Shown: positions 2,720 to 19,777, counted from the first letter of the stretch. The stretch: DNA of 64,000 nucleotides from an uncultured Microthrixaceae bacterium (GCA_963715505.1 OY970242.1:1551810-1615809); one strand, 5' to 3'. Notes: generated from the sequence alone by a model not told the origin. Made by a program: numbers and translations.

Positions 2720-2742
2720 GTTCGCTGACAGCACGCCCTCGG

Positions 2743-3276: not shown

Positions 3277-3294
3277 CGCCGACCATGGAGACCC

Positions 3295-3498: not shown

Positions 3499-3539
3499 CT
3501 GGGCTTCCTCACGCCGCACCCGCGACGCCTGGGCTCAAG

Positions 3540-4811: not shown

Positions 4812-4820
4812 CGGCGGCCA

Positions 4821-7800
4821 TCAGTGCGCTCCTGCGATCTCGGCGTCGGTGTTCATGTCTCGGATCACGACCTTGACGCGGTCGTCGACGATGCGCTTGC
4901 CGTCGAGGTACACGTCGGCACGGATCTGCAGGGCGGGCTGCCGGAGGCGCTGCACCGCGGCCGCCATCGCGGCCGTGTCGGGCACCGCAGCGCTCGCGTT
5001 GAGCCGCACGGGCGTGCCGGCGTCCGGAAGCTGCACGACGCCCCCCATCGCGTCCCGGGCCGCCTGGGCGGCCTCACGGATCGCGGGAACGGCGGACGTG
5101 ATGCCGGCGGCGATCGCGTCACCATACGACCGGCCCTGGTCGGCACCCACGAGCGCGAGCTCACCCGTGAGGCGGGCCTGTTCGGCGAGGAACTCCTCGT
5201 TGAGTGCCTCGACCTCCGCCGCGAAGGCGGACCGCATGTCGACCAGCATGCCCCCCAGCGCCGTGTAGGACTGCTGCGCCTCGGCGCGCGCCTGGGCGCC
5301 CGCCTGCTCGTTGCGTGCCGCGACCGCCTCGTTGAGCGCCGCGATCTCCTCATCCGTCGCCGCAGCGAACATGCGCAGCTGCCCGAGCGCCTGCGGGCTC
5401 TCGTCGAGGCCGAGCGCTTCGATCACGCCCTGCGACACGCCACGGGCCCGGGCGGCCGCCAGCTGGTCCTGCCAGTCGGTGAACACCTGGGCCTGATCGG
5501 CGATGTTGCTCGTGAGGGCCCCGACGGTGTTGCCCCACGAGATGACGGCCCGCTCCTCGACCCCGATCCACGCCTGCAGGGCACGGGCGCGGCCGGCGAT
5601 GGCGTCGCGCCGGTCCCGCTCGAGGTCCGCCTCCATGGCACGCAGGCGGGCGTGATGCTCCGTGGTGGCCTGTTCCATGCGGGCATGGATGTCGGCCTCG
5701 GCGTCGAGCAGGTCGTTGAGCGCCTCGACGGCGTCATCGACTGCCCTTCGCTCCGCCTCCGCCCGCTCCTCAGTGAGGCGCTTCTGCTCCTCGAGGAGGC
5801 GTTCGCGTTCGTTGTGCAGGCCCATCCAGGCGTCGGAGTACTTGACCTCGCGGGCCATGCGGCGGTCGAGGTTGAAGAGGTGGTCCTCGAGGCTGATCTT
5901 GCCGAGCTCGAAGAGGTTGTCGTTGATCTCGCGGCGGTGCCGGTAGTCGTCCTCGGCGTCGCGGGCGGCCTCCTCTTGGATCCGGGCCCGGTCGGCTTCG
6001 GCGTCCTCCTCGAAGCGCAGCAGCTGCTGGTAGGCGTCGACCCACTCGGCCGAGTACTGCCGGAACTGCGTGAGCCGCACCTGGAGGTGTCGACGGAAGT
6101 CCGTGTCGCTGATGGCGCCGACCTGGTGCATGACCTGCGTGAGCTCGAACCCTGACGGGACCTCACCGTGGGTGCCGCCGGCGAACCGCCCGACGCCACC
6201 GTTCGCCATGGGGACGACTCGGGCGCCGTACCAGCTGGCCGCGGTGGCGAGGATGCTCATGGAGCGGGTCGGGTCGCCACGGCGTGGGATGAAGGCCTCG
6301 CCGCCGGTCTCCGGTTCGGCGTAGCGGATCAGGTCGCCTCGAGCGATGTGGGCGGGCGTCACACCGCCACGCGCGTACTCGTAGATGTCGCCCCAACGGG
6401 ATTCCCCCACGAGGGCCCGGAGGTCCGCCTCCGAGCTGATCGGGATCCGCACGTGCGGGACCGAGCGCTGCAGCTCGGCGAACTTCGAGATCAGCGCGTC
6501 GATGGCTGCCGTGGCCTGCACGGTGTTCGCGTTGACGGCGGTGTCGACCCGGTTCGGGATCTCATCGAGCAGCCCCAGGTAGTGGTCGACCACGGGTGCC
6601 GGCACGCCAGCTGCTTCGGCCTGATCTCGGAACGACTGCGAGAGGTAGTCGATCCGCGCCTGCAGCTCCTGGCCCCTCACGCCCTGACGGATCCACTCGT
6701 CGATGACGCCCTTGGCGCCTGCGGTCATGCCGCGCATGTGCTCCCGCAGGATGAGGGCACCGTCGGATTGGTCGCCCATCACGTCGCGGAGGTTGAGGCC
6801 GTTCTCGATCGCGCGAGTCATCACGTCGTCGAGTTCGTTGAAGCCCCGCAGCAGCTTGTCGCGGGCCTCCTCGAAGCCGAAGTACTTCTCGAAGAGCTCG
6901 TCCAGCTCAGAGATCAGGTCGTCGATCGCCTGCTCCTGCTGTTCGATCGCCTCGGTCGCGGAGGAGATCTGCGGCACCGACTCGCGCATCGCTCCGCTCG
7001 TGCCCTCGACTTCCGGGATCAGGTACTGCAGAGCGGCAGCCCAGTTGATGGTGCCGTCCTCGAGCGTGGCCATCTCGACGGCGGCATCCACGGCGGACTG
7101 CGTCAGGTCACCGTTGGTGACCGCCAGCTCGATGGTGCGCTGCGCAGCCCCCTGTGCTTCGTCGTCCCAGTCCTCGATCTCCTCGATCAGGCCCTTGAGT
7201 GCCGTCCGGCTGATGCCCATGGCCTCGGCGACACGATCGACCGCGCGAGCAGAGGCGCCCTTGTCGTCGAGCTTCCCGATGTCGAAGCCCTCGAGGTCGA
7301 GGCCCAGCGCTTGAATCTGCGCGCGGAACGGGTCGAGCGCGTCTCCGCCCGCCACGATCGTGTCCTCGATGTCGGCCAGGCTCACACCGAAGGCGTTGAG
7401 ACCCTCAACCTGCTCTGACGACAGCCCCTCGACGCCCAGGCGCAGGAACTCCGCAAGGGCATCGTTCAGGCTCGTCTGTCCGTCGAGCACGGGACTGAGC
7501 GACCTGGCGAGCTCCCGGACCTGTGCCTCGTACTCACGACTCGCGCGCGTCGCCCGCTCGTACGCGAGCGCGCTGACGGCGATAGCTGCTCCGGCGCCCG
7601 CCAGCCACGGCATCGCCGTCGCCGCGACACGACCGGCAGCGCCCATCTCTCGCAGTGAGGTCCGCAGATCACGGATCTTCGGCAGCAGGACACCCGTGGT
7701 TCCCACGATGCCCGTCAGGGTCGCCGAGATCCCCGCCACACCGGTGCCTGCGACCTTGAGCACAGAGGGCATCTCGGAGAACCCGCGAATGAGATTCGAT

Positions 7801-8945
7801 GCTCCGTCCGCGGCCTTCGCGACAGCAGGCAGGAGCACGCCGCCGATGTCGACGCCCAGGTCAACCACCTGGTTGCGGGCCACCTCGAGCTTGGCAGCGG
7901 TCGTCTCGTAGCGCTTCTCCGCCTCCGTCATCAGGGCGGTGTTCTCGTCCCATGCCCCGTTCGCGAGGAGCACCTGGTGCCGGACGTAGTCGGACGCTTC
8001 ACCGGTCGCCAGGAGCGCGCGCATGAGCCGCTGGTCCGCGAGGCCGAGGTCATCGAAGATCGCGGTCGTCGACTGCCCGGCGGCGCTGACGTCGCCCAGG
8101 CCCTCGACGAACGACACGATCGCCTCTGCCGCGTCCTCGCGGAACAGCGCGGAGAACTCGCTGATCGACATGCCCGCTGTCTGTGCGAAGACCTGGAGCT
8201 TGTCGGAGCCGTCCAGCACGGCGTCGCGGATCGAGGTGAAGACCTTGGAGAACGCGGTGCCGCCTGCCTCGGCCTCGACGCCGACCGCCGCCAACGACTC
8301 AGCGAACGCGAACACGTCCGCCTCCGACAGTCCGGCGATGGTGCCGGCGGCGGCGAGGCGTTGCGCCATCTCGGCGATCTCGGCCTCAGTGGAAGCGCCC
8401 GCGTTGCCGAGCGCCACGATCGTCGAGCCCATCCGGTCGAAGTCGGACTGGCTCGTGCCCATCACGTTCGCGATGCGAGCGAACGACGTGGCGGCCTGGT
8501 CGGCCGTGAGGTTTGTCGTCTCTCCCAGGTCGATCATCGTCCGAGTGAACGACCCGATCGACGCGGTCTCGACCCCCAGGGCGCCGGCCGCTTCCGCTAC
8601 TGCGGCGATCTCGCCGTGTGTCGCCGGCAGTTGAGTGGTCATCTCGCGCAGTTCGCCCTGGAGAGCCGACATCTGCTCCGCTGACCCGTCGACCGTCTTC
8701 GCCACTCCGGCCCAGGCGGACTCCCAGTCAATCGCCGCCTTGGCCGACGCGCCGAGGCCGACAGCAAGCGTGCCGGACATGACAAGTGCGGATCTGCCGA
8801 CACGCTCGATGTCGCGCGTCGACGCTGAGCCCATGCCGGAGACCTGTCGCCCGAAGTCCCGGACCGACGCGGCGGCAGCCCCCATGCCAGCAGTGAAACT
8901 GCCGACGTCCGCCTTCAGCTTGACCTCGATAGTGCGGAACGACAT
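4821..8945 (-). CDS. Phage tail tape measure protein (TP901-like core), 1374 aa
   Basis: N-term MSFRTIEVKLKADV; AAIDWESAWAGVAKTV, LGNAGASTEAEI and EAGGTAFS core; YAEPETGGEAFIP motif; long helical Ala/Glu-rich body; VYLDGK C-terminus. Confidence 0.9.
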   Translation of the reverse strand: MSFRTIEVKLKADVGSFTAGMGAAAASVRDFGRQVSGMGSASTRDIERVGRSALVMSGTLAVGLGASAKAAIDWESAWAGVAKTVDGSAEQMSALQGELREMTTQLPATHGEIAAVAEAAGALGVETASIGSFTRTMIDLGETTNLTADQAATSFARIANVMGTSQSDFDRMGSTIVALGNAGASTEAEIAEMAQRLAAAGTIAGLSEADVFAFAESLAAVGVEAEAGGTAFSKVFTSIRDAVLDGSDKLQVFAQTAGMSISEFSALFREDAAEAIVSFVEGLGDVSAAGQSTTAIFDDLGLADQRLMRALLATGEASDYVRHQVLLANGAWDENTALMTEAEKRYETTAAKLEVARNQVVDLGVDIGGVLLPAVAKAADGASNLIRGFSEMPSVLKVAGTGVAGISATLTGIVGTTGVLLPKIRDLRTSLREMGAAGRVAATAMPWLAGAGAAIAVSALAYERATRASREYEAQVRELARSLSPVLDGQTSLNDALAEFLRLGVEGLSSEQVEGLNAFGVSLADIEDTIVAGGDALDPFRAQIQALGLDLEGFDIGKLDDKGASARAVDRVAEAMGISRTALKGLIEEIEDWDDEAQGAAQRTIELAVTNGDLTQSAVDAAVEMATLEDGTINWAAALQYLIPEVEGTSGAMRESVPQISSATEAIEQQEQAIDDLISELDELFEKYFGFEEARDKLLRGFNELDDVMTRAIENGLNLRDVMGDQSDGALILREHMRGMTAGAKGVIDEWIRQGVRGQELQARIDYLSQSFRDQAEAAGVPAPVVDHYLGLLDEIPNRVDTAVNANTVQATAAIDALISKFAELQRSVPHVRIPISSEADLRALVGESRWGDIYEYARGGVTPAHIARGDLIRYAEPETGGEAFIPRRGDPTRSMSILATAASWYGARVVPMANGGVGRFAGGTHGEVPSGFELTQVMHQVGAISDTDFRRHLQVRLTQFRQYSAEWVDAYQQLLRFEEDAEADRARIQEEAARDAEDDYRHRREINDNLFELGKISLEDHLFNLDRRMAREVKYSDAWMGLHNERERLLEEQKRLTEERAEAERRAVDDAVEALNDLLDAEADIHARMEQATTEHHARLRAMEADLERDRRDAIAGRARALQAWIGVEERAVISWGNTVGALTSNIADQAQVFTDWQDQLAAARARGVSQGVIEALGLDESPQALGQLRMFAAATDEEIAALNEAVAARNEQAGAQARAEAQQSYTALGGMLVDMRSAFAAEVEALNEEFLAEQARLTGELALVGADQGRSYGDAIAAGITSAVPAIREAAQAARDAMGGVVQLPDAGTPVRLNASAAVPDTAAMAAAVQRLRQPALQIRADVYLDGKRIVDDRVKVVIRDMNTDAEIAGAH

Positions 8946-8950
8946 GGCGC

Positions 8951-9238
8951 TCAGCTCACGGACCCTGGAGGTTGGTCGACGTACCGAAAGCCGCCTGGGA
9001 GAGTCCCGCCGTTCCGCTTCAGCCACGCCTCGACGTAACGAGTGCCGACGCGATCAGCGATCGCCACCTGCTCCTCGGTGAGGCCCAGCTCGTCGGCGTG
9101 GACGACCGCCTGCATTGCTCCAACCATCTCCAGGGCGATCTGGCTGAGGCCCGCTTTGACGAGCAGGTTCGCCGCACCAGGGAGCGCGCCGGAGCTCGAA
9201 GCGCGCTCCCCGCTCGACCGGCGCTGCTGCCGGTTCAC
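8951..9238 (-). CDS. Hypothetical protein immediately upstream of tape measure gene
   Basis: Coding-like C-terminal part of the 151-aa ORF; probable GTG start (VNRQQRR...). Confidence 0.55.
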   Translation of the reverse strand: MNRQQRRSSGERASSSGALPGAANLLVKAGLSQIALEMVGAMQAVVHADELGLTEEQVAIADRVGTRYVEAWLKRNGGTLPGGFRYVDQPPGSVS

Positions 9239-9383
9239 TCCGCGGCCTGCTCTCCGGCCGCCGCGATGCACGGCCGATCTACGCCGACCGGGGCGAACTG
9301 CGGGCGAGACGCGCCAGCGGTGGGCCTGAGCAGCCACCGGAGTCGCTGCCCCGCCCGCCCTCGACGGCACGCGTGGTACATCG

Positions 9384-10322
9384 TCACACCGCCGTCTCGG
9401 GCTCATCGACTGGGGTCGCTACCTGCTTTGGCACGAGAACCACGTCGCCGGCGCCACCGAACTCGTGGCGCAATGCGTCAGCGCTCGAACACGCGCCGCG
9501 CTCCTTGCGAGCCCGTTCCCGCCCGTCCTCGAGCGCACGCGAGGGGCCGGCAGGCTTGGACGAGCGCGGATCGGCTCCCCGAGCAAGCTCGGACAGCCTT
9601 GCTCGCGCCGCCTCACGCTCGACGGCGAGCCGAGGATCGCCTGTCACCCACGCCTCTTCCATGCCGGCCCGGGCGAGGCCCCGGGCACCCTCGATCGCCT
9701 CGTGCTCGATCCGCTCGCGCACGTCATCCCGGGTGCCGGGCTGCAGCTGGGCGTTCAGCCGTGCTCGCGCCTCGGCCACCATGGCGTCCTCGACCCACTG
9801 GAGCGCCAGCAGGCGGTTCTCAGGCGAGTGCCAGGGCTGGCGGGCGACCGTCGCTCGCAGCTGCGCCTCCTCAGCGCAGCGGTCGTGGTGGCGGCGCACC
9901 GGATCGACGACCTGCGCGACGAGTCGGCGCTCCGTCGAGCTCTCCGCCACGGCGTCGAGCTCGTGCAAGAGGGCGGCGTCCTGAGCGGACACGTGCGCCG
10001 GCGGCACACCGCGCAGCGAGTTCAGGAACTCGACATCGCCGACCGTGAGCGCGCGCGGCCGACCGTTCACCGGGCCCCGCATGGGATGGTCGTACGAGCT
10101 CGACCCCTCCGCCTGGGCGAGCATCCATTCCAGCAGTGGGCGCTGCGGCGTCGGCCGTCCGTAGGACTCGCGTTGTAGGCGGGCGAGCAGCGCCCGCAGT
10201 CGGCCTCGGTGGAGCGGGTCGCGGGGGTCGCGAGACACGACCTCGAGCAGCTCGGCGCCGGCCAACCGGAACGGCGGCCGCTGCCGCGACTCCACGATCG
10301 ATTCCAGCGTCACATCGGACAT
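9384..10322 (-). CDS. Hypothetical helical protein (312 aa)
   Basis: Long ORF coupled to the RHH gene by TGATG overlap; no motif recognised. Confidence 0.7.
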   Translation of the reverse strand: MSDVTLESIVESRQRPPFRLAGAELLEVVSRDPRDPLHRGRLRALLARLQRESYGRPTPQRPLLEWMLAQAEGSSSYDHPMRGPVNGRPRALTVGDVEFLNSLRGVPPAHVSAQDAALLHELDAVAESSTERRLVAQVVDPVRRHHDRCAEEAQLRATVARQPWHSPENRLLALQWVEDAMVAEARARLNAQLQPGTRDDVRERIEHEAIEGARGLARAGMEEAWVTGDPRLAVEREAARARLSELARGADPRSSKPAGPSRALEDGRERARKERGACSSADALRHEFGGAGDVVLVPKQVATPVDEPETAV

Positions 10323-10522
10323 CAGGTGCTCCTCGGGTCAGCAACGGAGTGGCGCGCGAGGTACTCCTCGACGGCCTTGCGCAGCACCCACGAGCGGCTC
10401 CGCTCATCGGACGCGGCGAGCTCGTCGACGGCCGCCACCAGCGATGGATCGAGTCGCAGCGACAACGGCAGGCCGTCGCCCGCCTGGTGCGTTCGTCGGC
10501 TCTGGACCTGGGTGGCGCTCAT
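10322..10522 (-). CDS. Ribbon-helix-helix (CopG-like) regulator
   Basis: LSLRLDPSLVAAVDELAASDERSRSWVLRKAVEEYL. Confidence 0.85.
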   Translation of the reverse strand: MSATQVQSRRTHQAGDGLPLSLRLDPSLVAAVDELAASDERSRSWVLRKAVEEYLARHSVADPRST

Positions 10523-10626
10523 GCCGGCGAGCGTCTACCGGCGACTACTCCGCAGCCCGGATGCACACGCCGTAGCGACGGCCGGGGCGCTACGTTCCCC
10601 GGGGACCACCAAGGGGGGGAGCCACC

Positions 10627-11133
10627 GTGGACCACACCGACGGAGGATCGGAGCCGACAGCCCGCGACGTGCGCTCAGGCGAGCGAGAAGGCGCGGACCG
10701 CGTCCCCTGGCTCGTTGCGGCCGCTCTCGGCGTGCTCGTCGTCGCCTTGTTCGGACTCTGGATCAGCGCCCGCAGCGACGCCAACGAAGCCCAGGTCGAA
10801 CTCGACCGGCTCGAGGAAGCCGAACAGGCGCGTCAGGCTGCCGACGAAGCACTCCCCGATCTCGAGCTGCTCGCCCGGAAGCACCGCCTCGGGACCATCG
10901 GAGCCATCGAGACCATCAACGAAGAGTCCCTGAGCCTCAACTTCGACGGCATCTCGATCGACCAACTAGGCGAGCTCCTCGAGGAGCTCGACTTCAGCCC
11001 TGGAACCATGAGCCGCATCGGCAACACACGCGCCCTTGACGGCACCCTCACCGCCGAAGCGCCCCACGTGCGCGCCAGCTGGACCTACCATCCCGACGAC
11101 GGCCTCAGCATCGTCCTCGAACGAACCGGATGA
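10627..11133 (+). CDS. Membrane-anchored protein of a type seen in actinophages
   Basis: Single TM helix, coiled coil, C-terminal TRALDG...ASWTYHPDDGL motif. Confidence 0.7.
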   Translation: MDHTDGGSEPTARDVRSGEREGADRVPWLVAAALGVLVVALFGLWISARSDANEAQVELDRLEEAEQARQAADEALPDLELLARKHRLGTIGAIETINEESLSLNFDGISIDQLGELLEELDFSPGTMSRIGNTRALDGTLTAEAPHVRASWTYHPDDGLSIVLERTG

Positions 11134-11225
11134 GCCGAGACGTACCGCTGAGGGTGAGTTTCGGTGCACGGCACTCAGCCCAGCCATAGCATCGGGGCCC
11201 ACGTCACCGCGGGGGGAGATCACAC

Positions 11226-11864: not shown

Positions 11865-11893
11865 CACCGTCGTTCGGCGACGAGGTAGCGACG

Positions 11894-12013
11894 TCAGCGC
11901 GCTCGGCGACCCCACGCGCGCCGCACCCGGGCGCGCTGCCGCTCCACCGCCGCCGGCCGGAACGCCAGCACCAAGTCCCGCACGAACCGCACCACCAGCT
12001 CACGATTCGTCAC
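11894..12013 (-). CDS. Small basic hypothetical protein (39 aa)
   Basis: GTGA overlap with WhiB stop; MTNRELVVRFVRDLVLAFRP... Confidence 0.35.
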   Translation of the reverse strand: MTNRELVVRFVRDLVLAFRPAAVERQRARVRRAWGRRAR

Positions 12014-12582: not shown

Positions 12583-14081
12583 CGGGCGCGACGACCGGAC
12601 CCGTGCCGGCGATCCAACACCCGCCCAGTCATCAACGGCCGCGACGGGGCCGACTCGAGCAGCTGATGCGCCGCCAGGCCCAAGGCGAGCGCACGGTCAT
12701 CGTGGTGGCCAGCGTCGTGGTCCATCCGGACAACACCAGGCGACGTCTCCCGCAACCGCACGTTCGCCAGCTCGTCCAACAGCTCCGGATCATCCGGCAG
12801 CGCCAACGCCCGGTTGCGCAACAGCAGATGCATCGTCGACGCCAACCGGCCCACCGACCCCGACGAGAACGTGAACTCCTCGGTCCGCACGCCCCGCACA
12901 TGCAGCCGCTGCGCCATGCCGACGGACTGCCACGGATCGAAGATCAGGGATGCACCGTTGAACGCCTGCGACGCCTGCAGGATCCACTCCTCGACCTCGC
13001 TCAGCTTCACCGGCGACCCCCGCGACCCCTGCCACACCTGCATGCGATCCAACACGATCCGCACGCCACGCTCCGGTGAGCCCCGCTGCACACGCCGCCC
13101 CCGCACCGGGCGCTCCGAGAAGTCGAGATCCGACAACGGGTCGTACCCGCCCCACTCCACCCGCTCCCGCTCGTCGGCCGACACCAGGAACCGGACGCCC
13201 TCCACGTCCGTCGCCTCCGCGTGGCACACCGCCACCACCGTGCGGTCGTTCGTGATGCCCAGGTCAGCGCCGATCACGTAGTCGATGCCCGGCACCGGCC
13301 GCAGCGGCCCATCCAACGTGACGCACGCCCGCAGATCCTCGACGCTCGTCAGGCGGCCCTCGCTGGCCACCCACTCGTTCAGGTGCAGCCGCCGGTACTG
13401 CGACTCGCTGAGCTCCGCCCGCTGCTCCGCCAGCGCCTCAGCGCCGATCCACGGACACGGGCCCGGCGTCTCCGACACCCGCCACGCGTCCGACGCCCTC
13501 GCACGCTCGAGCAGCTTGAACGCCGGCGACGCCGGGTCACCCGCGGACGTCAGGATCGCCAGCCGCGACCCCGGCACCTTCGCCACCCCGGAGAAGATCG
13601 CCTCCCACAGGCGGCGCGGCGCCCCCGTCGTGCGCCACTGCGCGTACTCGTCGACGATCGTCAGGTGCGGCCGCAGACCCCACGCCGACGCGTCGTCGGC
13701 GGACATCACATCGAGCCGGGCAGCGGTGCGCTTGTTGGTGACCTTGTAGGCGTCGACCTTCACGAGCGAGCGCAGGCCCGTGCGGGACACGAACCCCCCG
13801 ATCGAGTCGACCAGCAGGGCAGCCTGGTCCCGGTCGGCCGCGAAGGCGTACGAGCGTGACGCCCGTGGCAGCTGCTCGATCAGAGCCGCGAGCGCGACCC
13901 CGCCGAGATCGCTCGTCTTCGACGCGCCACGAGGGCGCGTGACGTAGTGCATGCGAGGCGCGGAGACGTCGGCGCTGAGGATCGCCCCGGCATCCGCCCA
14001 CTGGAAGGGCTCGGCCACGTCCCCCCACGGCCGGCCGTCCTCGAGGCGCATACCCGCGAGAAGGGCGAGAGCGTCACCCAT
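12579..14081 (-). CDS. Phage terminase large subunit
   Basis: Walker A variant RPRGASKT, AADRDQA, Walker B LTIVDE, ILTSAG coupling motif, nuclease motifs GADLG, FDPWQ and HDD. Confidence 0.85.
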   Translation of the reverse strand: MGDALALLAGMRLEDGRPWGDVAEPFQWADAGAILSADVSAPRMHYVTRPRGASKTSDLGGVALAALIEQLPRASRSYAFAADRDQAALLVDSIGGFVSRTGLRSLVKVDAYKVTNKRTAARLDVMSADDASAWGLRPHLTIVDEYAQWRTTGAPRRLWEAIFSGVAKVPGSRLAILTSAGDPASPAFKLLERARASDAWRVSETPGPCPWIGAEALAEQRAELSESQYRRLHLNEWVASEGRLTSVEDLRACVTLDGPLRPVPGIDYVIGADLGITNDRTVVAVCHAEATDVEGVRFLVSADERERVEWGGYDPLSDLDFSERPVRGRRVQRGSPERGVRIVLDRMQVWQGSRGSPVKLSEVEEWILQASQAFNGASLIFDPWQSVGMAQRLHVRGVRTEEFTFSSGSVGRLASTMHLLLRNRALALPDDPELLDELANVRLRETSPGVVRMDHDAGHHDDRALALGLAAHQLLESAPSRPLMTGRVLDRRHGSGRRAR

Positions 14082-14631
14082 GGTCCACCGCGTCGCCGTC
14101 GTCGTCCTGGTTCTCGTCGCCGTCGTCGTCTCGCTCGACGAGCTCGCCGCGGCTCTCGAGGATCCGTTGACCAGCAGCACGGAGGGCTTCCACACCGGGC
14201 GTGGTGTCCCCCTCCTCGACGCCGGCGGCCTGGATCGCCACGAGCAGCTTCGCCTCCGCCAGCGGACCAAGGCCCAGATCGGCACGCAACGTGCGGGCGC
14301 GCCGCTCGAGCTTCTCCCGGTAGTTCGCCGCCGCCGGCACCTCGCCCTCGTCGTTCACCGCCTGGCGTTCATCGAGCCACCGCCGGACCAGCAGGCAGCG
14401 CGCCTCCGCCCACGCCCACGCCGCCACCGTCGACGCATGAGCCGGCCCACACGCCCAAGGCGCCACGTCCGCCAGATGCTCCGACCACCGCAGCAGCTCA
14501 TCCGCCACCGGCTGGATGCTCCGGGCGGAGTCGGCGCCGTGCTTCAGGGCCGCCCGGTTCCCCTCCTCGTAGGGCTGGGCCGGGCGCCACGGGCGCGACC
14601 ACTGCGGCTCGACAGCGGCCTGGTCGGTCAC
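14074..14631 (-). CDS. Putative terminase small subunit
   Basis: GN.AALKHGA.S N-terminal motif and LGLGPLAEAKL (P27-like LGL.P..R.KL); overlaps terL start. Confidence 0.65.
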   Translation of the reverse strand: MTDQAAVEPQWSRPWRPAQPYEEGNRAALKHGADSARSIQPVADELLRWSEHLADVAPWACGPAHASTVAAWAWAEARCLLVRRWLDERQAVNDEGEVPAAANYREKLERRARTLRADLGLGPLAEAKLLVAIQAAGVEEGDTTPGVEALRAAGQRILESRGELVERDDDGDENQDDDGDAVDHG

Positions 14632-14875
14632 CTCACCACCACCCGACAGGGCGCCCACGACAGGCCACCGTCATGGGGTGCAGACCGCTCCCCCATCCGA
14701 CACGCACCCACCCCATGCGCTCGCGAGCTCACGACCAGGCCAACCACCCGGCCGACGATGCACGCGCGCCCAACCGCGCAGCGGGATGCAGCCCTCACGG
14801 CATCACGCGCGGGTTCCTGCACGACGACGGCTCCAGAGCCGGAGGGCAGGAGGCCCGAGATGGGGCTGGGACCCT

Positions 14876-15047
14876 GGGGGTTCCCTACGTGAACCCCCCA
14901 GTGGTTCCCGGTTGCCCGGTGGTGGTGGTTCCGGGTGGTTCCGGTGGTGGTTCCGGGTGCTGTGACCTGGGGTTTCATGGGTTGGTTCCCGTGGTTCCTG
15001 TCGATGGTTCCGGTGTGGGTGTTGGGGGTGGTTCCCGGAGCGGTTCC
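14876..15047. repeat. GGTTCC iteron cluster with small inverted repeat; putative replication origin
   Basis: Ten GGTTCC copies (14879, 14903, 14927, 14937, 14949, 14984, 14993, 15006, 15030, 15042); IR GGGGGTTC-N7-GAACCCCC at 14876-14898; lies at the 3' end of the helicase gene. Confidence 0.7.
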
Positions 15048-16135
15048 GGGGTGCGTTCGCGGCGGTCGGGGTGGCGGCGCCAGCGTTGGGCGGCGGCGAC
15101 GACGGCTTTGCGGCGGGGGTTGACGTCGGCGTCTCGGAGGGCCTTGAGGGCGTCGTTGACGGAGGTGGTGGCGTGGACTTGGAGGCGGTCGAGGTGTTGG
15201 GCGCAGGGTTCGGTGCCGGCGGGCCAGTTGTCGTCGGCGATGACGTGGCGGAGGGGTTCGTCGAGGCGGCGGATTTTGAGTTGTTCGGGGACCCAGCTGA
15301 GTCGGCTGAAGGACTGGTGGAGGAGGTATTCGTTGCCGCCGGCGGGTCGGAGCTCCCAGGAGAGGTCGACGTCGTCGCCTTTGGCGCTGGAGCCGCGTTC
15401 GCCCTTGTCGGGTTCCTTGCCGCCGTGGTCGAGGCGGAGGGCGCTCACGCCTGCTCGTTTGAGGAGGATGCCGGTGCAGCGGTAGTAGCCCTGGATGGTG
15501 TCGCTGTCGTTCTCTTTGCCGGTGACGACGCGGGAGAGGGTGTCGATGACGACGAGCTGAGCCTTATGTCGTTCGACGAGCTCCATGAGGGCCAGGCCGC
15601 CGGCGTAGTCGTTGAGCGGGGGGAGGCTGGGGAGCAGGTAGTAGTGGAGGCGGCTGAGGTCGTCGTCGGGCCCGTAGCCGAAGTCGATGAGGCGCTCCTC
15701 GAGGTCGTCTTCGGTCATCTCGAGGTCGAGGTAGATGACCTCGAGTGGTGGGACCGGGTCCTGGCCGAGGATGGGTCGCCCGGTGGCGGCGGCGGCGCAG
15801 AGATCGAGGCTGAGGAGGCTCTTGCCGGTCTTGCGCTTGGCCCAGATGGTGCCTTGGCGGCCGGCGGGCAGGATGCTGGGGAGAGCCCAGTCCTCGGTAC
15901 GGTGTTCGCGCTGCCAGAAGGCGGGCCAGTCGATCGGGTCGGGGAGGCCCGAGGGTTCCGTGGTCGTCGCGCCGTGGCCGTTCTGAAGGATGTGGGCGAT
16001 GTCGTGGCGGTGCGGCGGTGCACCAGCCCAGCTGTGCCAGACGTGTTCGACGAGGTCCTCGAGCGAGGCACCGGGCGGTGCCGTGTCGGCGAGGCGACGG
16101 ACGTCGGCTGCGACGGCGGGGGCGGGTTGGGTCAC
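14975..16135 (-). CDS. AAA_25/RepA-like (RecA-fold) replicative helicase
   Basis: Walker A AKRKTGKS, VIYLDLEM, Walker B LVVIDTL, END, DH..K and RGSS motifs. Confidence 0.85.
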   Translation of the reverse strand: MTQPAPAVAADVRRLADTAPPGASLEDLVEHVWHSWAGAPPHRHDIAHILQNGHGATTTEPSGLPDPIDWPAFWQREHRTEDWALPSILPAGRQGTIWAKRKTGKSLLSLDLCAAAATGRPILGQDPVPPLEVIYLDLEMTEDDLEERLIDFGYGPDDDLSRLHYYLLPSLPPLNDYAGGLALMELVERHKAQLVVIDTLSRVVTGKENDSDTIQGYYRCTGILLKRAGVSALRLDHGGKEPDKGERGSSAKGDDVDLSWELRPAGGNEYLLHQSFSRLSWVPEQLKIRRLDEPLRHVIADDNWPAGTEPCAQHLDRLQVHATTSVNDALKALRDADVNPRRKAVVAAAQRWRRHPDRRERTPEPLREPPPTPTPEPSTGTTGTNP

Positions 16136-16623
16136 GTGCGGTACTCGCCGCACCGGCAGCACCAGCCGTCGGCTTCGACGTCCTCACGGATGGCGCGGCA
16201 TCGCGAGCACTGTCGGGCGAAGCGGTCAGCGCCTTCGGGGACCCATCCGGTCCCGTCGCAGATGGGACAGCCGTCGGCGAGCTCCTCGAGGCAGCGGCAA
16301 TCCGTGAGCTCGGCGAGTCGGGAGTCGTGGCTGATCCAGCTGCTTCGCCGGTCGGTGTCGACTGGGGCGGGCTCGAGCATGCCTGCGTCGCCGCCGATGA
16401 GCGCGACCGTGATGCCGTCGGCGAGCAGGCCCCAAGCGGCGACGGGTTCGCGGCGGTACCAGTGTTCTCCGTCGTCGTCGTGAGTGCGGCTGACGACCCA
16501 CCACAGCCCGCTGGTCGGCACGATGCTGCGGACCTCGGTCGCGGCAGCGTCGGGTGGGAGCTGAGGCCCTGGTGTGCATCTGGATTCGGTCGTCGTGTCG
16601 GAAGTGGGATGTACGCTCGTCAC
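16132..16623 (-). CDS. Hypothetical protein with C-terminal Cys-rich (Zn-binding) region
   Basis: CRC, CPICDGTGW, CSRC and CCRC; GTGA-coupled to helicase. Confidence 0.6.
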   Translation of the reverse strand: MTSVHPTSDTTTESRCTPGPQLPPDAAATEVRSIVPTSGLWWVVSRTHDDDGEHWYRREPVAAWGLLADGITVALIGGDAGMLEPAPVDTDRRSSWISHDSRLAELTDCRCLEELADGCPICDGTGWVPEGADRFARQCSRCRAIREDVEADGWCCRCGEYRT

Positions 16624-16767
16624 CGGCGCTCTCCTTTGCTTGGCGGCGTGGGTGGCGCTTTCTGTTGCGGGTGGTGCCGGCTCAGGGGTGGGCCGGCACC
16701 GTCGCGTTCGGACCTCACTCTGGTGGCCGGGTAGGAACCTCTGGCGACGTCGTCAGACAGCGGATGG

Positions 16768-16935
16768 TCATGCGGCGTCGTCCCGTGCCTCGTGATCGCT
16801 GAGCGATCGCTCGTTGTCGTCCCGCACGATCCGCAGGAGCAGCCGGGCGAGCCGTGGCGTGATCGCCGGAGGGCGATCGGGCATCTCGACGGTGACATCA
16901 GGCGCTCGCTGCACCGTCGAGCGGGGCGCGGTCAT
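16768..16935 (-). CDS. Small hypothetical protein (55 aa)
   Basis: MTAPRS...DRPPAITPRLARLLLRIV; ATGA-coupled to HTH gene. Confidence 0.55.
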   Translation of the reverse strand: MTAPRSTVQRAPDVTVEMPDRPPAITPRLARLLLRIVRDDNERSLSDHEARDDAA

Positions 16936-17186
16936 GCGGCACCGATGCCGTGTGGGGCTGCGAGCACCCGCCCGGTCTTTGGGTCGAAGACGTCCTCCAC
17001 CGCAACCCCGCATGCGCCGGCGAAGCGCTGTTGGTACCGGTAGCTGGCTGGGATGAGGCCCGCCTCAACGCGGCTGCAGTAGGAGCGGTCGACGCCGGTG
17101 CGGTTGCTGAGCTGGGTCTGCGTGAACCCGGCTCGTCTCCGGGTGACCTCGTGCATCGAGATGACCTGCTTGACGGTTGTCACCAT
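16932..17186 (-). CDS. XRE/Cro-like HTH regulator
   Basis: RRRAGFTQTQLSNRTGVDRSYCSRVEAG. Confidence 0.85.
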   Translation of the reverse strand: MVTTVKQVISMHEVTRRRAGFTQTQLSNRTGVDRSYCSRVEAGLIPASYRYQQRFAGACGVAVEDVFDPKTGRVLAAPHGIGAA

Positions 17187-17237
17187 CGTGATAGGTTCTC
17201 CTCACGGCAGATATCACGAACGTGATGACACTCTGCC
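17180..17237. promoter_or_regulatory. Operator-like palindromes in the element's divergent switch region
   Basis: TCAC-N4-GTGA at 17180-17191 and ATCACGAACGTGAT at 17213-17226, the latter flanked by GGCAGA/TCTGCC. Confidence 0.6.
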
Positions 17238-17252
17238 CGGTGGGAGCGCCCG

Positions 17253-18110
17253 GTGGAAGGACGAGCCAGCAACAATTTCGTACCACGCATCAGGACCTGG
17301 CCCGACGGCGTGCTTGAGGTGCCCAGGGTCAAAGTCCACGCTGTCCGATCGTGCAGTGACGGCTTCATCACCTTGGCCACGACATCCAAGGAACGAGAGG
17401 TGCCACCCGAGCTGTTCCTACGCGAGCTCCTCGACCTCGACGTCAACGACGACCAGGCAGTCGCCGAGTTCACGAGCACGGCGGGGCTCCTCGCGCACCC
17501 GAACTGGCGTCGCTACGTCGTCCCCGTTCGCCGCGACGACCGCTTCGAGCGCCAATTGCGGAAGCTGTTCGCTGACCACCATCCGGACGTGCCCCTCCCG
17601 CACCCGCGGGGCGACGCCAGCTCCGCCCCAATGCGGCACGTCTTCCATGTCGAAGAGATCCAGACCCACGCCGAATGCATCAGAGCAGCGACCCGCTTCT
17701 GGGTGGGCCACGTCTCCGGCGCATCCCCGAGCGAGCTGCAGACGGTCTGGCCCGAGGAGGGCTTCCCCTCCCCCACGCTCCGCACCGCCTGGAACACCTT
17801 CGAATCGGTGCTCAACGCCGGCCTGCGAGATCAACAGGTGCGCATCAACGTCAGCCCGCGAGCCGACGAGCCCGCGTTCAGCCTCTACCCGTCGCTGTGC
17901 CTCCAGCTTTGGAACCTGATCGACGAGGGGGCGGTTCCTCGACGCTGCGGCAACGAGACATGCAACAGCCCGTTCGTCCGTCAGCGCGACGGCGCCGAGC
18001 ACGGCCAGTTCCACACCAAGGGTGTCCTGTACTGCTCCCGGACATGCGCCCGCGCGCAAGCGCAACGCGAGTACCGACGTCGGCTCACCAAGAAGGGAAC
18101 GAAGCGATGA
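17253..18110 (+). CDS. CGNR-type zinc-finger domain protein
   Basis: C-terminal RRCGNETC...F...YCSRTCARAQAQREYRRR; ATGA-coupled to recombinase. Confidence 0.75.
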   Translation: MEGRASNNFVPRIRTWPDGVLEVPRVKVHAVRSCSDGFITLATTSKEREVPPELFLRELLDLDVNDDQAVAEFTSTAGLLAHPNWRRYVVPVRRDDRFERQLRKLFADHHPDVPLPHPRGDASSAPMRHVFHVEEIQTHAECIRAATRFWVGHVSGASPSELQTVWPEEGFPSPTLRTAWNTFESVLNAGLRDQQVRINVSPRADEPAFSLYPSLCLQLWNLIDEGAVPRRCGNETCNSPFVRQRDGAEHGQFHTKGVLYCSRTCARAQAQREYRRRLTKKGTKR

Positions 18111-19777
18111 CCACCACGACGACCCTCTTTGCGTTCTACGGCCGCGTGAGCACCGAGGATCAGCAGGACCCGACGAGCTCGAAGCAGTGGCAGCTGGCGC
18201 GGTCGACCTCGCTCATCGAGCCTCACGGCGGCGAGGTGGTCGCCGACTACTTCGACATCGGGCAGAGCCGGTCCCTGCCGTGGAAGCGCCGCCCCGAGTC
18301 GGCCCGCCTCCTCGAGGACCTCCGCGATCCCGCCCGCGGCTTCGATGCCGTGGTGATCGGCGAGCCGGCCCGTGCGTTCTACGGCGGTCAGTTCGGGCTC
18401 ACCTTCCCAGTGTTCACGCACTACGGCGTCGAGCTGTGGGTGCCCGAGGTGGGCGGGCGCATCGACCCGGGCAGCGACGCCCACGACCTCGTGATGTCGC
18501 TCTACGGCGGCATGAGCAAGGGCGAGCGCAACCGCATCAAAATCCGCGTGCGGTCCGCCATGGCCAGCCAGGCAGCGACCGAGGGCCGGTTCCTCGGTGG
18601 TCGCCCGCCCTACGGCTACCAGCTCGTCGACGACGGCCCGCACCCCAACCCCGGGAAGGCAGCCGCCGGGCAGCGCGCACACCGCCTCGAGCTCGACCCG
18701 ATCGCCGCACCGGTCGTCGAGCGGATCTTCGACGAGTACCTCGCTGGGCGTGGCCTCTTCGCGATCGCCGAGGGCCTCACCGCTGACGGCATCCCCTCCC
18801 CCAGCGCGCACGACCCGGCCAGGAACCGCCACCGGACGAGCTCTGGCGGGGCATGGGGCAAGTCGGCCGTGCGGGCCATCCTCGGGAACCCTCGCTACAC
18901 CGGCCGGCAGGTCTGGAACCGCCAGCGCCGCGACGAGGTCCTCATGGACGTCGAGGACGTCGCAGCGGGCCACGAGACGAAGCTGCGCTGGAACGACCGG
19001 AGCGACTGGATCTGGTCTACGGACCAGGCCCACGAGGCGATCATCGACCCGGAGATGTTCGCCCGGGCGGAGTCGATGCGCGCCGCGGGTGCTCACCGTC
19101 CGAACACGACGAAGCGCCCTCGCGCCAAGCGCACGTATCAGCTCTCGGGCCTCATCACGTGTGGGCTCTGCGGCCGGCGCATGCAGGGCACGTTCAACAA
19201 TGGGCGCGAGCACTACCGCTGCCAGTTCGCCACCGAGTACGCGCTGGCCAAGGGCATCGACCACCCTCGCACCGTGTACCTCCGCGAGGACCGGGTGACC
19301 GCCGCGCTCGACGCATGGATCGCTGAGGTGTTCGACGAGGACAACGCCGCGGCGACCTGCGACGCTATGGCGATGGCCCAGGCGCCCGACGAGGGAGCTG
19401 CCGCCCGGCAGGAGGCGGCATGCCGCAAGATCGCCGACTGCGACTCGCGGCTGGCGAAGTACCGGGCCGCCCTTGACGCCGGCGCTGACGCCCTCGTGGT
19501 GGCCGGCTGGATGCGTGAGGTCCAGGGCGAGCGTCTGGAGGCTGAGCGGGCTCTAGAGGGCGCTGCACCGGCCGAGGAGCCGCTCACCGTCGCCCAGGTG
19601 CGAGCGCTCCTGGCGGGCATCCAGGACGCCGTGGCGCTGCTCGGCCGGGCCGACCCGAAGATCAAGGCCCAGGTCTACGCCGAGCTCGGCGTCTCGCTCA
19701 CCTTCGACCCTCACCGGAAGGTGGTGAAGGTCAAGGCCCGGCCATGTAGTACAGAGCGTGTCGGAGGGGGGACTTGA
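18107..19777 (+). CDS. Large serine recombinase (integrase)
   Basis: FYGRVST catalytic motif, GGRPPYGY, ILGNPRYTG, HEAII, Zn ribbon LSGLITCGLCG..YRC, coiled coil. Confidence 0.93.
   Translation: MTTTTTLFAFYGRVSTEDQQDPTSSKQWQLARSTSLIEPHGGEVVADYFDIGQSRSLPWKRRPESARLLEDLRDPARGFDAVVIGEPARAFYGGQFGLTFPVFTHYGVELWVPEVGGRIDPGSDAHDLVMSLYGGMSKGERNRIKIRVRSAMASQAATEGRFLGGRPPYGYQLVDDGPHPNPGKAAAGQRAHRLELDPIAAPVVERIFDEYLAGRGLFAIAEGLTADGIPSPSAHDPARNRHRTSSGGAWGKSAVRAILGNPRYTGRQVWNRQRRDEVLMDVEDVAAGHETKLRWNDRSDWIWSTDQAHEAIIDPEMFARAESMRAAGAHRPNTTKRPRAKRTYQLSGLITCGLCGRRMQGTFNNGREHYRCQFATEYALAKGIDHPRTVYLREDRVTAALDAWIAEVFDEDNAAATCDAMAMAQAPDEGAAARQEAACRKIADCDSRLAKYRAALDAGADALVVAGWMREVQGERLEAERALEGAAPAEEPLTVAQVRALLAGIQDAVALLGRADPKIKAQVYAELGVSLTFDPHRKVVKVKARPCSTERVGGGT

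What the first reader, a model, noticed from the sequence alone, without database searches (positions are those of the whole stretch)
4821..19777. Capsid-less satellite-like element encoding its own terminase and tape measure protein
Seen: order int, CGNR regulator | divergent cro, small ORFs, helicase, iterons, terS, terL, whiB, then RHH, two unknown ORFs and a full-length tape measure gene. No portal, protease, capsid, tail-tube or tail-tip gene is recognisable between terL and the tape measure gene, where siphophages keep them, and the core genes look intact and translationally coupled. Established: PICIs share the int/regulator/replication layout and often carry terS; capsid-forming PICIs carry head genes but no tail genes; Vibrio PLEs were reported to encode their own tape measure protein. 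Inference: this may be a little-described actinobacterial satellite that borrows helper heads and tail subunits while supplying its own packaging motor and tail ruler/DNA-delivery protein.
Basis: partly seen in the sequence, partly recalled or inferred. Interest (0 to 1): 0.85.

Follow-up and report, generated by a model that had tools for sequence, protein, structure and literature searches.

The report
Actinobacterial satellite with terminase and tape measure
A 20-kb mobile element sits at a tRNA-Leu gene and carries its own DNA-packaging enzymes and its own tail tape measure protein but no head genes, so it most likely spreads by borrowing the heads and tail parts of a helper phage.

Summary
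Next to tRNA-Leu(gag) lie a large serine integrase, a divergent HTH regulator, an AAA_25 helicase, iterons, terS-terL, whiB, an RHH gene, two unknown ORFs and a 1374-aa tape measure protein (TMP). No portal, protease, capsid or tail-tube gene was found by Pfam or PHROGs. The only unknown ORF large enough to be one (312 aa) folds confidently as an all-helical protein.

The element is larger than reported: about 20.1 kb. Its second att-like site lies 338 bp left of the window start, so 5 kb of cargo beyond the TMP, including an EAL protein, belongs to it.

It does not look like a deletion remnant. The TerL family is common in Actinomycetota MAGs. There it sits in small, tRNA-integrated, att-flanked elements. 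These carry terS-terL plus a TMP (5 of 23 informative loci; three measured at about 20-21 kb), a large head protein (7 of 23) or neither.

Distant TerL relatives (32-46% identity) sit in real phages next to a portal of the family also found in this genome's resident prophage.

Satellites with their own TMP are already published (Vibrio PLEs, mycobacterial EPIPs). I rate this a new variant of a known kind. Function is inferred and no helper is identified.

The parts
1..317 (-). Cargo gene, DUF6919 protein. The whole gene is window -267..317. The element's left att-like site lies at window -338..-323, outside the window.
   Evidence: PF21897 7.5e-42. The att-like 16-mer with 1 mismatch is at genome 1551471-1551486.
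352..3498 (.). Cargo region of unknown ORFs: 352-867(-), 1043-1681(-), 1872-2189(+), two overlapping frames at 2012-3249(-), and 3295-3498(+).
   Evidence: No Pfam or PADLOC hit. The only PHROGs hit is phrog_21251 (unknown function, 6e-09) for 3295-3498. ORFs 2012-3085 and 1043-1681 have no tblastn match in phage genomes. GC3 is about 0.8, like the element and below the host's 0.93-0.96.
3540..4811 (+). Cargo gene, an EAL-domain protein (cyclic-di-GMP phosphodiesterase type). It is convergent with the TMP gene.
   Evidence: PF00563 6.8e-68. Ten paralogous places elsewhere in the genome at 29-46% identity.
4821..8945 (-). Tape measure protein, 1374 aa. It is the last gene of the late operon.
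   Evidence: PF10145 6.2e-20. phrog_13339 3e-114, plus 13 further TMP PHROGs. The N-terminal 500 aa match annotated TMPs in 281 phage records, top listed rows 41-48% identity. The ATG at 8945 was read.
8951..9406 (-). Small unknown ORF just upstream of the TMP. Only its last ~80 codons look coding.
   Evidence: No Pfam or PHROGs hit above cut-off. The Atlas search gave no usable hit. Frame plot.
9384..10322 (-). Conserved all-helical 312-aa protein of unknown function. A member of its family also lies just upstream of the TMP in L019.
   Evidence: 19 relatives among 1.84 billion representatives. An HMM of the family hits the L019 311-aa ORF at E 1.6e-06. AF2 model pLDDT 85.5 with 12 helices. 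No significant fold match.
10322..10522 (-). Ribbon-helix-helix (CopG/Arc-like) protein.
   Evidence: PF01402 1.2e-11.
10627..11864 (+). Uncertain ORFs on the opposite strand (10627-11133 and 11226-11864).
   Evidence: Weak frame signal. No family above cut-off.
12010..12582 (-). WhiB-like protein. Its start overlaps the terL stop by 4 nt.
   Evidence: PF02467 5.2e-15. A whiB homologue lies beside terL in 4 of 29 related loci.
12579..14081 (-). Terminase large subunit, 500 aa.
   Evidence: phrog_9 4.5e-37. PF03354 2.6e-05. It carries all invariant columns of the family alignment A1. Start read.
14074..14658 (-). Terminase small subunit (P27/Terminase_4-like family), overlapping the terL start by 8 nt.
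   Evidence: A homologue lies directly upstream of terL in 16 of 29 loci. 9 of 20 family members hit PF05119; this one does not. HK97 TerS is only a weak fold lead.
14900..15037 (+). Iteron cluster (7 copies of GGTGGTTCCSG with up to 1 mismatch), the probable replication origin. It overlaps the 3' end of the helicase gene.
14975..16162 (-). AAA_25 (RepA/DnaB-like) replicative helicase.
   Evidence: PF13481 1e-25. Helicase and primase PHROGs.
16132..16623 (-). Unknown 163-aa ORF in the early leftward operon.
   Evidence: No Pfam hit.
16932..17186 (-). Cro/CI-type HTH regulator, divergent from the integrase operon.
   Evidence: HTH_31 7.9e-10, HTH_3 1.6e-06.
17253..18110 (+). 285-aa protein with a Cys-rich C-terminus. 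It overlaps the int start by 4 nt; function unknown.
   Evidence: No Pfam, PHROGs or PADLOC hit. Sequence.
18107..19777 (+). Large serine integrase, 556 aa.
   Evidence: Resolvase, Recombinase and Zn_ribbon_recom domains. phrog_95 1.1e-64. 66% identical to the integrase of L018 at the same tRNA.
19756..19842 (-). attR and tRNA-Leu(gag). The 3' end of the tRNA doubles as the last codons of int.
   Evidence: ARAGORN. An 18-base exact identity, within a 20-column alignment with one mismatch, links this site to the site at window -338.

Best explanation
This is an integrated phage satellite of an actinobacterium, about 20.1 kb long.

A large serine integrase inserts it into the 3' end of tRNA-Leu(gag). 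A divergent HTH switch controls an early operon with an AAA_25 helicase that acts on the adjacent iterons. A late operon encodes a complete terminase (TerS and TerL), WhiB, an RHH protein, two small or unknown proteins and a 1374-aa tape measure protein.

Inferred mechanism. When a helper siphophage is active, the element excises and replicates. Its own TerS-TerL recognises satellite DNA and pumps it into helper procapsids through the helper's portal. Its own TMP replaces the helper's TMP as the core around which helper tail-tube and tip proteins assemble. This gives chimeric tails whose length and DNA-delivery protein are set by the satellite.

Sister elements with the same terminase carry a large head protein instead of a TMP, so the module after terL appears to be an exchangeable hijacking module.

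Shown: gene content, att sites, recurrence of the layout, and the lack of detectable head genes. Inferred: helper dependence, packaging into helper heads, and TMP incorporation into tails.
For: Anatomy and family assignments.

Boundaries:
- The same tRNA-3' 16-mer occurs at window -338 and at 19759.
- The left copy is preceded by a 105-aa remnant of another serine integrase's C-terminus (34% identity over 82 aa, E 1e-09). This fits tandem insertion.
- A same-genus genome has a 4.9-kb element flanked by the same motif at the same tRNA.

No head genes found:
- Pfam and PHROGs gave no structural hit on the ORFs tested.
- u312 folds as an all-helical protein, pLDDT 85.5.
- phrog_777, PF05065, phrog_2662 and PF04860 hit the five host genomes only outside the elements.

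Recurrence:
- TerL has 843 homologues at E<=1e-20. The 119 listed besides the query itself are 52-64% identical.
- 29 genome loci and 5 of 400 sampled phylum genomes carry the family.
- Att repeats delimit elements of 8-21 kb.
- Among 23 loci with at least 3.5 kb downstream of terL, 5 are TMP-type: L019 (PhageMin_Tail 1.3e-29), L040 (phrog_1533 4.5e-44), L035 (phrog_7025 2.1e-11), and L037 and L026 (TMP_3 plus glucosaminidase/M23). Seven carry a phrog_777 major head protein.
- TMP-type elements measure 20.5, 20.9 and 19.9 kb; this one measures 20.1 kb.
- They sit at four or more separate places in a TerL tree.
- A u312-family ORF sits upstream of the L019 TMP.

The TMP is a true phage TMP, matching 281 phage records.

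Phage origin of the terminase: TerL relatives at 32-46% identity sit beside a phrog_2662-type portal in G067 and in IMG/VR contigs of up to 61 kb. The resident prophage at 2.25-2.29 Mb has a phrog_2662 portal, a capsid, a tube protein and a 701-aa TMP.

Precedent: PLEs build chimeric tails with their own TMP and TAC (PMC12987554, passages). EPIPs are 11-kb actinobacterial satellites with a serine integrase, terS and a TMP, and their tails are longer than the helper's (PMC12822802, main text).
Against: - There is no experimental or read evidence of excision, induction or packaging; no sequencing run was listed.
- No helper is identified. The element's TerL and TMP have no tblastn match at E<=1e-3 to the resident prophage.
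- TerL was not found in 29 same-genus genomes or in 60 same-family genomes. This copy therefore looks like a lone recent arrival whose helper may not be present.
- No tail assembly chaperone was recognised. u312 and the small ORF have no known fold or family.
- Several related loci have terL split into separate tblastn pieces (L027, L036, L039, L042, L073) and L042 has a fragmented head gene, so decay does occur in this family.
- 11 of the 23 informative loci have neither module by my HMMs, and not every ORF in the relatives was scanned against Pfam or PHROGs.
- A divergent capsid or portal below detection cannot be fully excluded. However, outside int, helicase, TerL, TMP and EAL, no frame-plot-supported ORF exceeds 312 aa. 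The 357-aa frame at 2012-3085 is uncertain and unmatched.
Confidence: 0.6

Rival explanations
1. Deletion remnant. A temperate siphophage lost its portal-to-tail-tube block and its distal tail and lysis genes, leaving terS-terL and the TMP by accident. The element would now be immobile.
For: The gene order terS-terL ... TMP is what a siphophage would show after an internal deletion. The TMP is followed directly by non-phage cargo. Decayed copies exist among relatives. A remnant of another element lies next door.
Against: The same compact layout recurs in 5 related loci in different TerL lineages and with three different TMP families. Three of them are bounded by att repeats. All core genes here are open and overlap as coupled genes do. 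The TerL carries every invariant column of its family. No relative with TerL at 40-56% identity is a full prophage.
Confidence: 0.1
2. It is a satellite, but the TMP serves mainly as interference or defence. It would act as a dominant-negative ruler that poisons the helper's tail assembly and protects the host population, rather than being needed for the element's own transfer.
For: Satellites commonly interfere with helper assembly, and tail assembly is a known target: PLE11's Rta restricts ICP1 tail assembly (PMC12987554, passages). The element's TMP is about twice the length of the resident prophage's TMP (1374 against 701 aa) and has no detectable similarity to it.
Against: In PLEs the satellite TMP is incorporated into satellite virions, and deleting it lowers transduction when Rta is present. 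EPIP particles have altered tails. A 4-kb gene is a costly way to make an inhibitor.
Confidence: 0.15
3. Mosaic of two unrelated pieces. A small terS-terL satellite (like L025 or L038, which end soon after terL) lies next to a TMP-plus-cargo fragment of a different decayed prophage.
For: Tandem insertions do occur at this tRNA. Opposite-strand ORFs of uncertain status separate whiB from the RHH-to-TMP block.
Against: No att-like junction lies between window -323 and 19759; the only hit at up to 3 mismatches on the 16-mer is on the opposite strand at 14687. The same juxtaposition is seen in L019, L035, L040, L037 and L026. L019 also shares the u312-family ORF and an opposite-strand ORF after terL.
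Confidence: 0.08
4. Not virion-borne at all. TerL-like and TMP-like proteins would serve a non-viral DNA-transfer or envelope-penetration apparatus, in the manner of a conjugative element.
For: No capsid or portal was found. Some relatives' TMP-like proteins carry peptidoglycan hydrolase domains.
Against: TerS-TerL pairs are known only from capsid packaging. The TMP matches virion TMPs of 281 phages. Sister elements carry a major head protein. No conjugation gene was seen.
Confidence: 0.03

Closest known systems
Vibrio cholerae PLEs (PLE11, PLE1, PLE4)
   Same: An integrated satellite with a large serine recombinase and its own TMP. PLEs use TMP plus TAC to build chimeric tails from helper parts (PMC12987554, passages read).
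   Different: PLEs have no terminase of their own. They parasitise a lytic myovirus, live in Vibrio and remodel capsids with TcaP (TcaP from the listing of PMC10945586). Sequence homology to PLE genes was not tested here. No TAC or baseplate hub was recognised in this element.
EPIPs of Mycolicibacterium aichiense (bioRxiv 2025, PMC12822802)
   Same: An actinobacterial satellite with a serine integrase, an HTH regulator, terS and a TMP. Tails longer than the helper's suggest the TMP sets tail length (main text read).
   Different: EPIPs are 11 kb. They are reported with head-to-tail adaptor, stopper, scaffold and major capsid annotations, and without terL. This element is 20 kb, has terL and shows no head or connector genes. 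EPIP sequences were not at hand, so homology is untested, and their supplement was not seen.
Capsid-forming PICIs (cf-PICIs)
   Same: Satellites that carry terL as well as terS (PMC10085698, passages). Some are shown with putative tmp genes (legend of Extended Data Fig. 10 in PMC12987554).
   Different: The cf-PICI core includes capsid genes and head-tail adaptor and connector genes. No capsid or portal family was found here, and none of the ORFs scanned hit a protease, adaptor or connector family.
PhiRv1/PhiRv2-like small prophage-like elements of mycobacteria
   Same: Small actinobacterial elements that SatelliteFinder classed among PICI-type satellites. From recall, PhiRv1 uses a serine integrase and carries terminase, protease and capsid genes but no tail genes. 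The MCP-type sister elements found here (L018 and others) resemble that layout.
   Different: This element has a TMP in place of the head protein. Homology to PhiRv genes was not tested.
Temperate siphophage prophage, such as the resident one at C1:2.25-2.29 Mb
   Same: terS-terL and TMP are of phage type. TerL falls in the same PHROG (phrog_9) as the resident prophage's TerL.
   Different: The resident prophage has portal, protease, capsid and major tail proteins. This element has none of them and is half to a third of the size.

Membership tests
Phage satellite (general) | Small integrated element with its own integrase and att sites | tested here: met
   Serine integrase. Att-like 16-mer at both ends, 20.1 kb apart.
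Phage satellite (general) | Own replication module | tested here: met
   AAA_25 helicase beside 7 clustered iterons.
Phage satellite (general) | Lacks most virion structural genes | tested here: met
   No portal, protease, capsid, tube or tip family in any ORF scanned. u312 is all-helical. Genome-wide family searches hit only the other prophage.
Phage satellite (general) | Induced by, and packaged in particles of, a helper phage | not testable with these tools
   No sequencing run was listed. This needs induction and virion sequencing.
PICI (SaPI-like) | int, divergent regulators, primase/replicase with ori, and terS, without terL | tested here: not met
   int, a divergent HTH, helicase plus iterons and terS are all present, but a full terL is present too.
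cf-PICI | Capsid genes and head-tail adaptor and connector genes beside terS and terL | tested here: not met
   terS and terL are present. None of the head or connector families was detected.
PLE | Vibrio element with PLE core genes (RepA, TcaP, TMP plus TAC) | tested here: inconclusive
   A TMP and a serine recombinase are present. A TAC was not recognised. No PLE sequence was compared. The host is an actinobacterium.
EPIP | About 11 kb, with serine int, terS, TMP, adaptor, stopper and scaffold/capsid annotations | tested here: inconclusive
   int, terS and TMP are met. The size (20 kb) does not fit, and connector and capsid genes were not detected. Sequence homology could not be tested.
Tape measure protein | PhageMin_Tail domain in a long, largely helical protein matching virion TMPs | tested here: met
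   PF10145 at 72.4 bits against a cut-off of 33.2. 14 TMP PHROGs. 281 phage records.
Terminase large subunit | ATPase and nuclease domains with conserved catalytic columns | tested here: met
   phrog_9 covers residues 111-522 of the 568-aa ORF. All invariant columns of A1 are present, including the G52/K55/T56, D144/E145 and H460/D461/D462 columns; reading them as Walker A, Walker B and nuclease motifs is from recall.
Complete temperate siphophage | Portal, capsid, tail tube, tail tip and lysis genes | tested here: not met
   None was detected within window -322..19777.

The most novel reading that the evidence does not exclude
Actinomycetota may harbour a widespread, undescribed family of tRNA-integrated satellites built around a private terS-terL terminase whose downstream slot holds alternative hijacking modules.

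- The head-protein version is about 8-12 kb and would make or remodel heads.
- The TMP version is about 20 kb. It would take helper heads unchanged and re-rule the helper's tail, with the satellite dictating tail length and the DNA-conduit protein. Here the TMP is 1374 aa against 701 aa in the resident prophage. By the usual ~1.5 A per residue (recalled), that means tails roughly twice as long.

This would be the first satellite type that supplies both the packaging motor and the tail ruler while encoding no head or connector protein.
Probability: 0.45. Interest if true: 0.75.

Novelty: new variant of a known kind. Interest (0 to 1): 0.62.

Why it matters
Satellite-encoded tape measure proteins were recognised only in 2025-2026 (PLEs, EPIPs). 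Why a parasite of a phage should bring its own tail ruler is still an open question.

This element and its relatives show the trait in soil and freshwater Actinomycetota. Here it is combined with a complete private terminase and no detectable head genes, and it arose in several TerL lineages with unrelated TMP families. That points to a general selective advantage for controlling tail assembly or DNA delivery.

The finding also offers contrasting sister elements, one type with a head protein and one with a TMP, for testing what each module does. In addition, it flags a TerL family with no tblastn match among 50,697 sequenced phage genomes. Prophage and satellite finders may misread that family.

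Tried and rejected
- Single-protein scans for close TerL relatives found nothing in genome contigs or viral contigs. The metagenome-contig scan gave only two 38%-identity fragments. The alignment-based scans were used instead.
- TerL has no tblastn match in the phage collection.
- u312: the word-index search found only the query itself. The Atlas gave no usable hit. Foldseek against pdb and viral found nothing at E<=0.001. VIA wide gave only generic helical rows at Z<=6.3.
- Small ORF upstream of the TMP: the Atlas scores (up to 0.83) are leads only.
- terS: the profile search against PDB sequences found nothing meaningful. Foldseek placed HK97 TerS at ranks 4-5 with E about 3, which is a weak lead only.
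- PADLOC gave no hit on 10 cargo or unknown ORFs.
- The idea that the resident prophage is the helper could not be supported by similarity. It rests only on a shared portal PHROG with phages that carry related TerLs.
- The look-up of sequencing runs: none was listed. No read test for excision or expression was therefore possible, and read laying was not used.
- Complex prediction of u312 with TMP residues 28-690 gave no verdict. It counts neither for nor against binding.
- L071 (the same record as L032) has a 978-aa ORF after terL that I first took for a TMP. It has no TMP similarity and was not counted.
- The TerL tree is a FastTree, midpoint-rooted, and I read no support values. It has 26 rows. 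Six loci whose best TerL alignment was under 380 aa were left out (L031, L036, L039, L042, L043, L044).
- Supplements of the three papers were not seen. They may list elements of this kind.
- No paper describing terS-terL-TMP satellites without head genes in Actinomycetota turned up in searches. This covers the held library only.

Full report
**What is there**

The window is G000:C1:1551810-1615809 of a single-contig, 3.16-Mb, roughly 70% GC genome. GC3 frame analysis and family scans give the following map, read from right to left.

- tRNA-Leu(gag) lies at 19758-19842 (-).
- A 556-aa large serine integrase lies at 18107-19777 (+). It has Resolvase, Recombinase and Zn_ribbon_recom domains and matches phrog_95 at 1.1e-64. 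Its last codons are the 3' end of the tRNA.
- A 285-aa Cys-rich ORF at 17253-18110 (+) overlaps the int start by 4 nt.
- A divergent HTH_31 regulator lies at 16932-17186 (-), followed by small ORFs.
- An AAA_25 helicase lies at 14975-16162 (-).
- Seven iterons lie at 14900-15037. The whole window has 18 matches, against 3.79 expected from shuffles.
- terS lies at 14074-14658 (-).
- terL lies at 12579-14081 (-): phrog_9 4.5e-37, and Pfam TerL_ATPase just over its cut-off.
- whiB lies at 12010-12582 (-).
- About 1.5 kb of uncertain opposite-strand ORFs follows.
- An RHH gene lies at 10322-10522 (-).
- A 312-aa ORF (u312) and a small ORF follow.
- A 1374-aa tape measure protein lies at 4821-8945 (-): PhageMin_Tail 6.2e-20, phrog_13339 3e-114, and 13 further TMP PHROGs.

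The genes overlap as coupled genes do. terS/terL overlap by 8 nt and terL/whiB by 4 nt.

**Boundaries**

The 16 bases that form the tRNA 3' end at attR recur, with one mismatch, 338 bp left of the window start. The two sites share an 18-base exact identity within a 20-column alignment that has one mismatch.

That left copy is preceded by a 105-aa open frame that is 34% identical to the integrase C-terminus over 82 aa (E 1e-09). This is what tandem insertion of two serine-integrase elements into one tRNA would leave. Further left lie a Doc/RHH toxin-antitoxin pair and then host genes with GC3 of 0.93-0.96.

A same-genus genome (G015) has a 4.9-kb element at this tRNA, flanked by the same motif. 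It holds an integrase (51% identity over 480 aa) and a 129+70-aa minus-strand ORF pair that I did not scan. By size and order the pair resembles the Doc/RHH pair left of this element.

The element is therefore about 20.1 kb (window -322 to 19777). It includes 5 kb of cargo beyond the TMP: an EAL protein, a DUF6919 protein, a phrog_21251 protein and unknown ORFs. None of these hit a structural or PADLOC family. The two largest have no match in phage genomes.

**Are head genes hidden?**

Apart from int, helicase, TerL, TMP and EAL, no frame-plot-supported ORF exceeds 312 aa. The 357-aa frame at 2012-3085 is uncertain and had no hit.

u312 is a real, conserved protein, with 19 relatives among 1.84 billion representatives. 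With that alignment it folds at pLDDT 85.5 as twelve helices and no sheet. It has no significant match in PDB or BFVD. That fold is not the mixed alpha/beta HK97 capsid fold or a beta-rich tail tube (fold descriptions recalled), and no portal matched either.

Genome-wide searches for HK97 capsid (PF05065), the phrog_777 head protein and portals (phrog_2662, PF04860) hit only a separate prophage at 2.25-2.29 Mb.

**Remnant or design?**

Close TerL relatives are rare near this organism. None was found in 29 same-genus genomes or in 60 same-family genomes. Two of 100 relatives had one, at 45-48% identity in their best segments.

The family as a whole is large. It has 843 proteins at E<=1e-20, and the 119 listed besides the query itself are 52-64% identical. 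Where a source gives a name it is Actinomycetota, Gaiellaceae or Nitriliruptor. Five of 400 other sampled phylum genomes carry it at E<=1e-40. No phage genome among 50,697 matched by tblastn.

An alignment-based scan returned 29 genome loci.

- In 16 of the 29, a homologue of the ORF I call terS lies directly upstream of terL.
- Nine of 20 members of that terS family match Terminase_4.
- These loci are small tRNA-integrated elements with tyrosine or serine integrases and varied replicases (Prim-Pol, D5_N, DnaB/AAA_25).
- tRNA-derived direct repeats delimit them to 8-21 kb.

Twenty-three loci have at least 3.5 kb of sequence downstream of terL: 19 and 4.

- Seven carry a 500-600-aa phrog_777 'major head protein' soon after terL: L018, L020, L028, L033, L041, L069 and the fragmented copy in L042.
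- Five carry a TMP instead. They are L019 (1017 aa, PhageMin_Tail 1.3e-29), L040 (1199 aa, phrog_1533 4.5e-44), L035 (990 aa, phrog_7025 2.1e-11, the weakest call), and L037 and L026 (TMP_3 at 36.8 bits, below its cut-off of 41, plus glucosaminidase and M23 domains).
- In three loci a tyrosine integrase follows terL closely: about 0.7-1.1 kb downstream in L038 and L039, and about 2.5 kb in L025.
- The remaining eight have neither module by my HMMs.

The att-delimited TMP-type elements measure 20.5, 20.9 and 19.9 kb, close to this one. L035 and L040 are sisters, so these represent three independent lineages including this element. The head-protein type measures 8-12.5 kb.

In a rough TerL tree the TMP-type elements fall in at least four places, interleaved with the others. 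L019 also has a u312-family ORF directly upstream of its TMP (HMM E 1.6e-06) and an opposite-strand ORF after terL, as this element does.

L018 is the nearest relative by integrase (66% identity) and sits at the same tRNA-Leu(gag). It is an 11.9-kb head-protein-type element. Capsid and portal genes in the genomes hosting TMP-type elements lie on other contigs.

This recurrence argues against an accidental deletion. Decay does occur in the family, though. terL is split into separate tblastn pieces in L027, L036, L039, L042 and L073.

**Where the parts come from**

The TMP's first 500 residues match annotated TMPs of 281 phages, and the top listed rows are 41-48% identical. They include Glutamicibacter, Brevibacterium and Arthrobacter phages.

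TerL relatives at 32-46% identity sit in phage-like contexts next to a roughly 1100-1200-aa protein. In G067 that protein matches the phrog_2662 portal profile, and its homologues follow terL in IMG/VR contigs of up to 61 kb.

The resident prophage of this genome has a phrog_2662 portal, a protease, a phrog_10 capsid, a phrog_117 tube protein, a phrog_9 TerL and a 701-aa TMP. It is therefore a conceivable helper. However, the element's TerL and TMP show no direct similarity to it.

**Mechanism (inferred)**

The element most likely behaves as a satellite. The serine integrase excises it. The helicase and iterons replicate it. Its own TerS-TerL select its DNA and fill helper procapsids through the helper's portal. 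Its TMP then nucleates tails from helper tube and tip proteins.

Two published cases make this plausible.

- Vibrio PLEs encode a TMP and a chaperone, and their particles carry chimeric tails (PMC12987554, passages read). The legend of that paper's Extended Data Fig. 10 says PLE-like elements and some cf-PICIs also have putative tmp genes.
- EPIPs are 11-kb satellites of Mycolicibacterium with a serine integrase, terS and a TMP. Their tails are longer than the helper's (PMC12822802, main text read).

terL is otherwise a hallmark of capsid-forming PICIs, and PhiRv1/2-like elements were classed as PICI-type (PMC10085698, passages).

A terS-terL-TMP element without head or connector genes did not turn up in four literature searches. 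Supplements were closed.

**Verdict**

- I rate this a new variant of a known kind, namely a TMP-encoding satellite.
- My odds: about 0.6 for a satellite whose TMP serves its own chimeric tails, 0.15 for a satellite whose TMP acts mainly as interference, about 0.1 each for a deletion remnant or a mosaic of two pieces, and a few per cent for a non-virion role.
- No helper, excision or packaging has been shown. No sequencing run was listed, and the complex prediction gave no verdict.

Noticed in passing
L001:205-1231 (genome C1:1550514-1551540; window -1295..-269): Remnant of a second element in tandem at the same tRNA. It holds a Doc-like toxin (phrog_577 2.4e-25), an RHH antitoxin and a 105-aa C-terminal fragment of another serine integrase that ends in the same tRNA-derived motif.
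   Followed up: partly
L059+L060 (G015:C1:715057-720006): A same-genus genome has a 4.9-kb mini-element at tRNA-Leu(gag), flanked by the same 16-mer. It holds a 129+70-aa minus-strand ORF pair (not scanned) and a serine integrase 51% identical over 480 aa, but no terminase. This tRNA is an insertion hotspot in the genus.
   Followed up: partly
G000:C1:2252000-2285000 (L045 covers 2252001-2272000): A siphophage-like prophage with a full head and tail gene set in the same genome: TerL, portal, protease, capsid, major tail protein and a 701-aa TMP. It is a candidate helper but shows no sequence similarity to the element's TerL or TMP.
   Followed up: partly
L035:15930-17668: The cargo after the TMP in a related element is a phosphoribosyltransferase-domain protein followed by a DprA/SLOG-like protein. 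The pair may be a defence system. L040 carries an IrrE-like M78 peptidase fused to an HTH in the same position.
   Followed up: no
L071:215-3151 (same record as L032): In one related element terL is followed directly by a 978-aa ORF with no TMP or head-protein similarity. By eye its sequence is helix-rich and repeat-like. This would be a third kind of module in the same slot.
   Followed up: partly
window 12579-14081 and alignment A1: This TerL family has 843 or more members in public proteins but no tblastn match in 50,697 sequenced phage genomes, and only 7 loci in IMG/VR. It appears to live mostly in small integrated elements of uncultured Actinomycetota.
   Followed up: partly
window 2012-3249 (-): Two overlapping minus-strand frames (2012-3085 and 2521-3249) each show coding-like GC3 over part of their length. 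This may be a frameshifted cargo gene of about 400 aa. It has no family or phage match.
   Followed up: partly
window 3540-4811: The element carries an EAL-domain protein with ten paralogous places elsewhere in the genome (29-46% identity). A mobile element could use it to alter host cyclic-di-GMP signalling.
   Followed up: no
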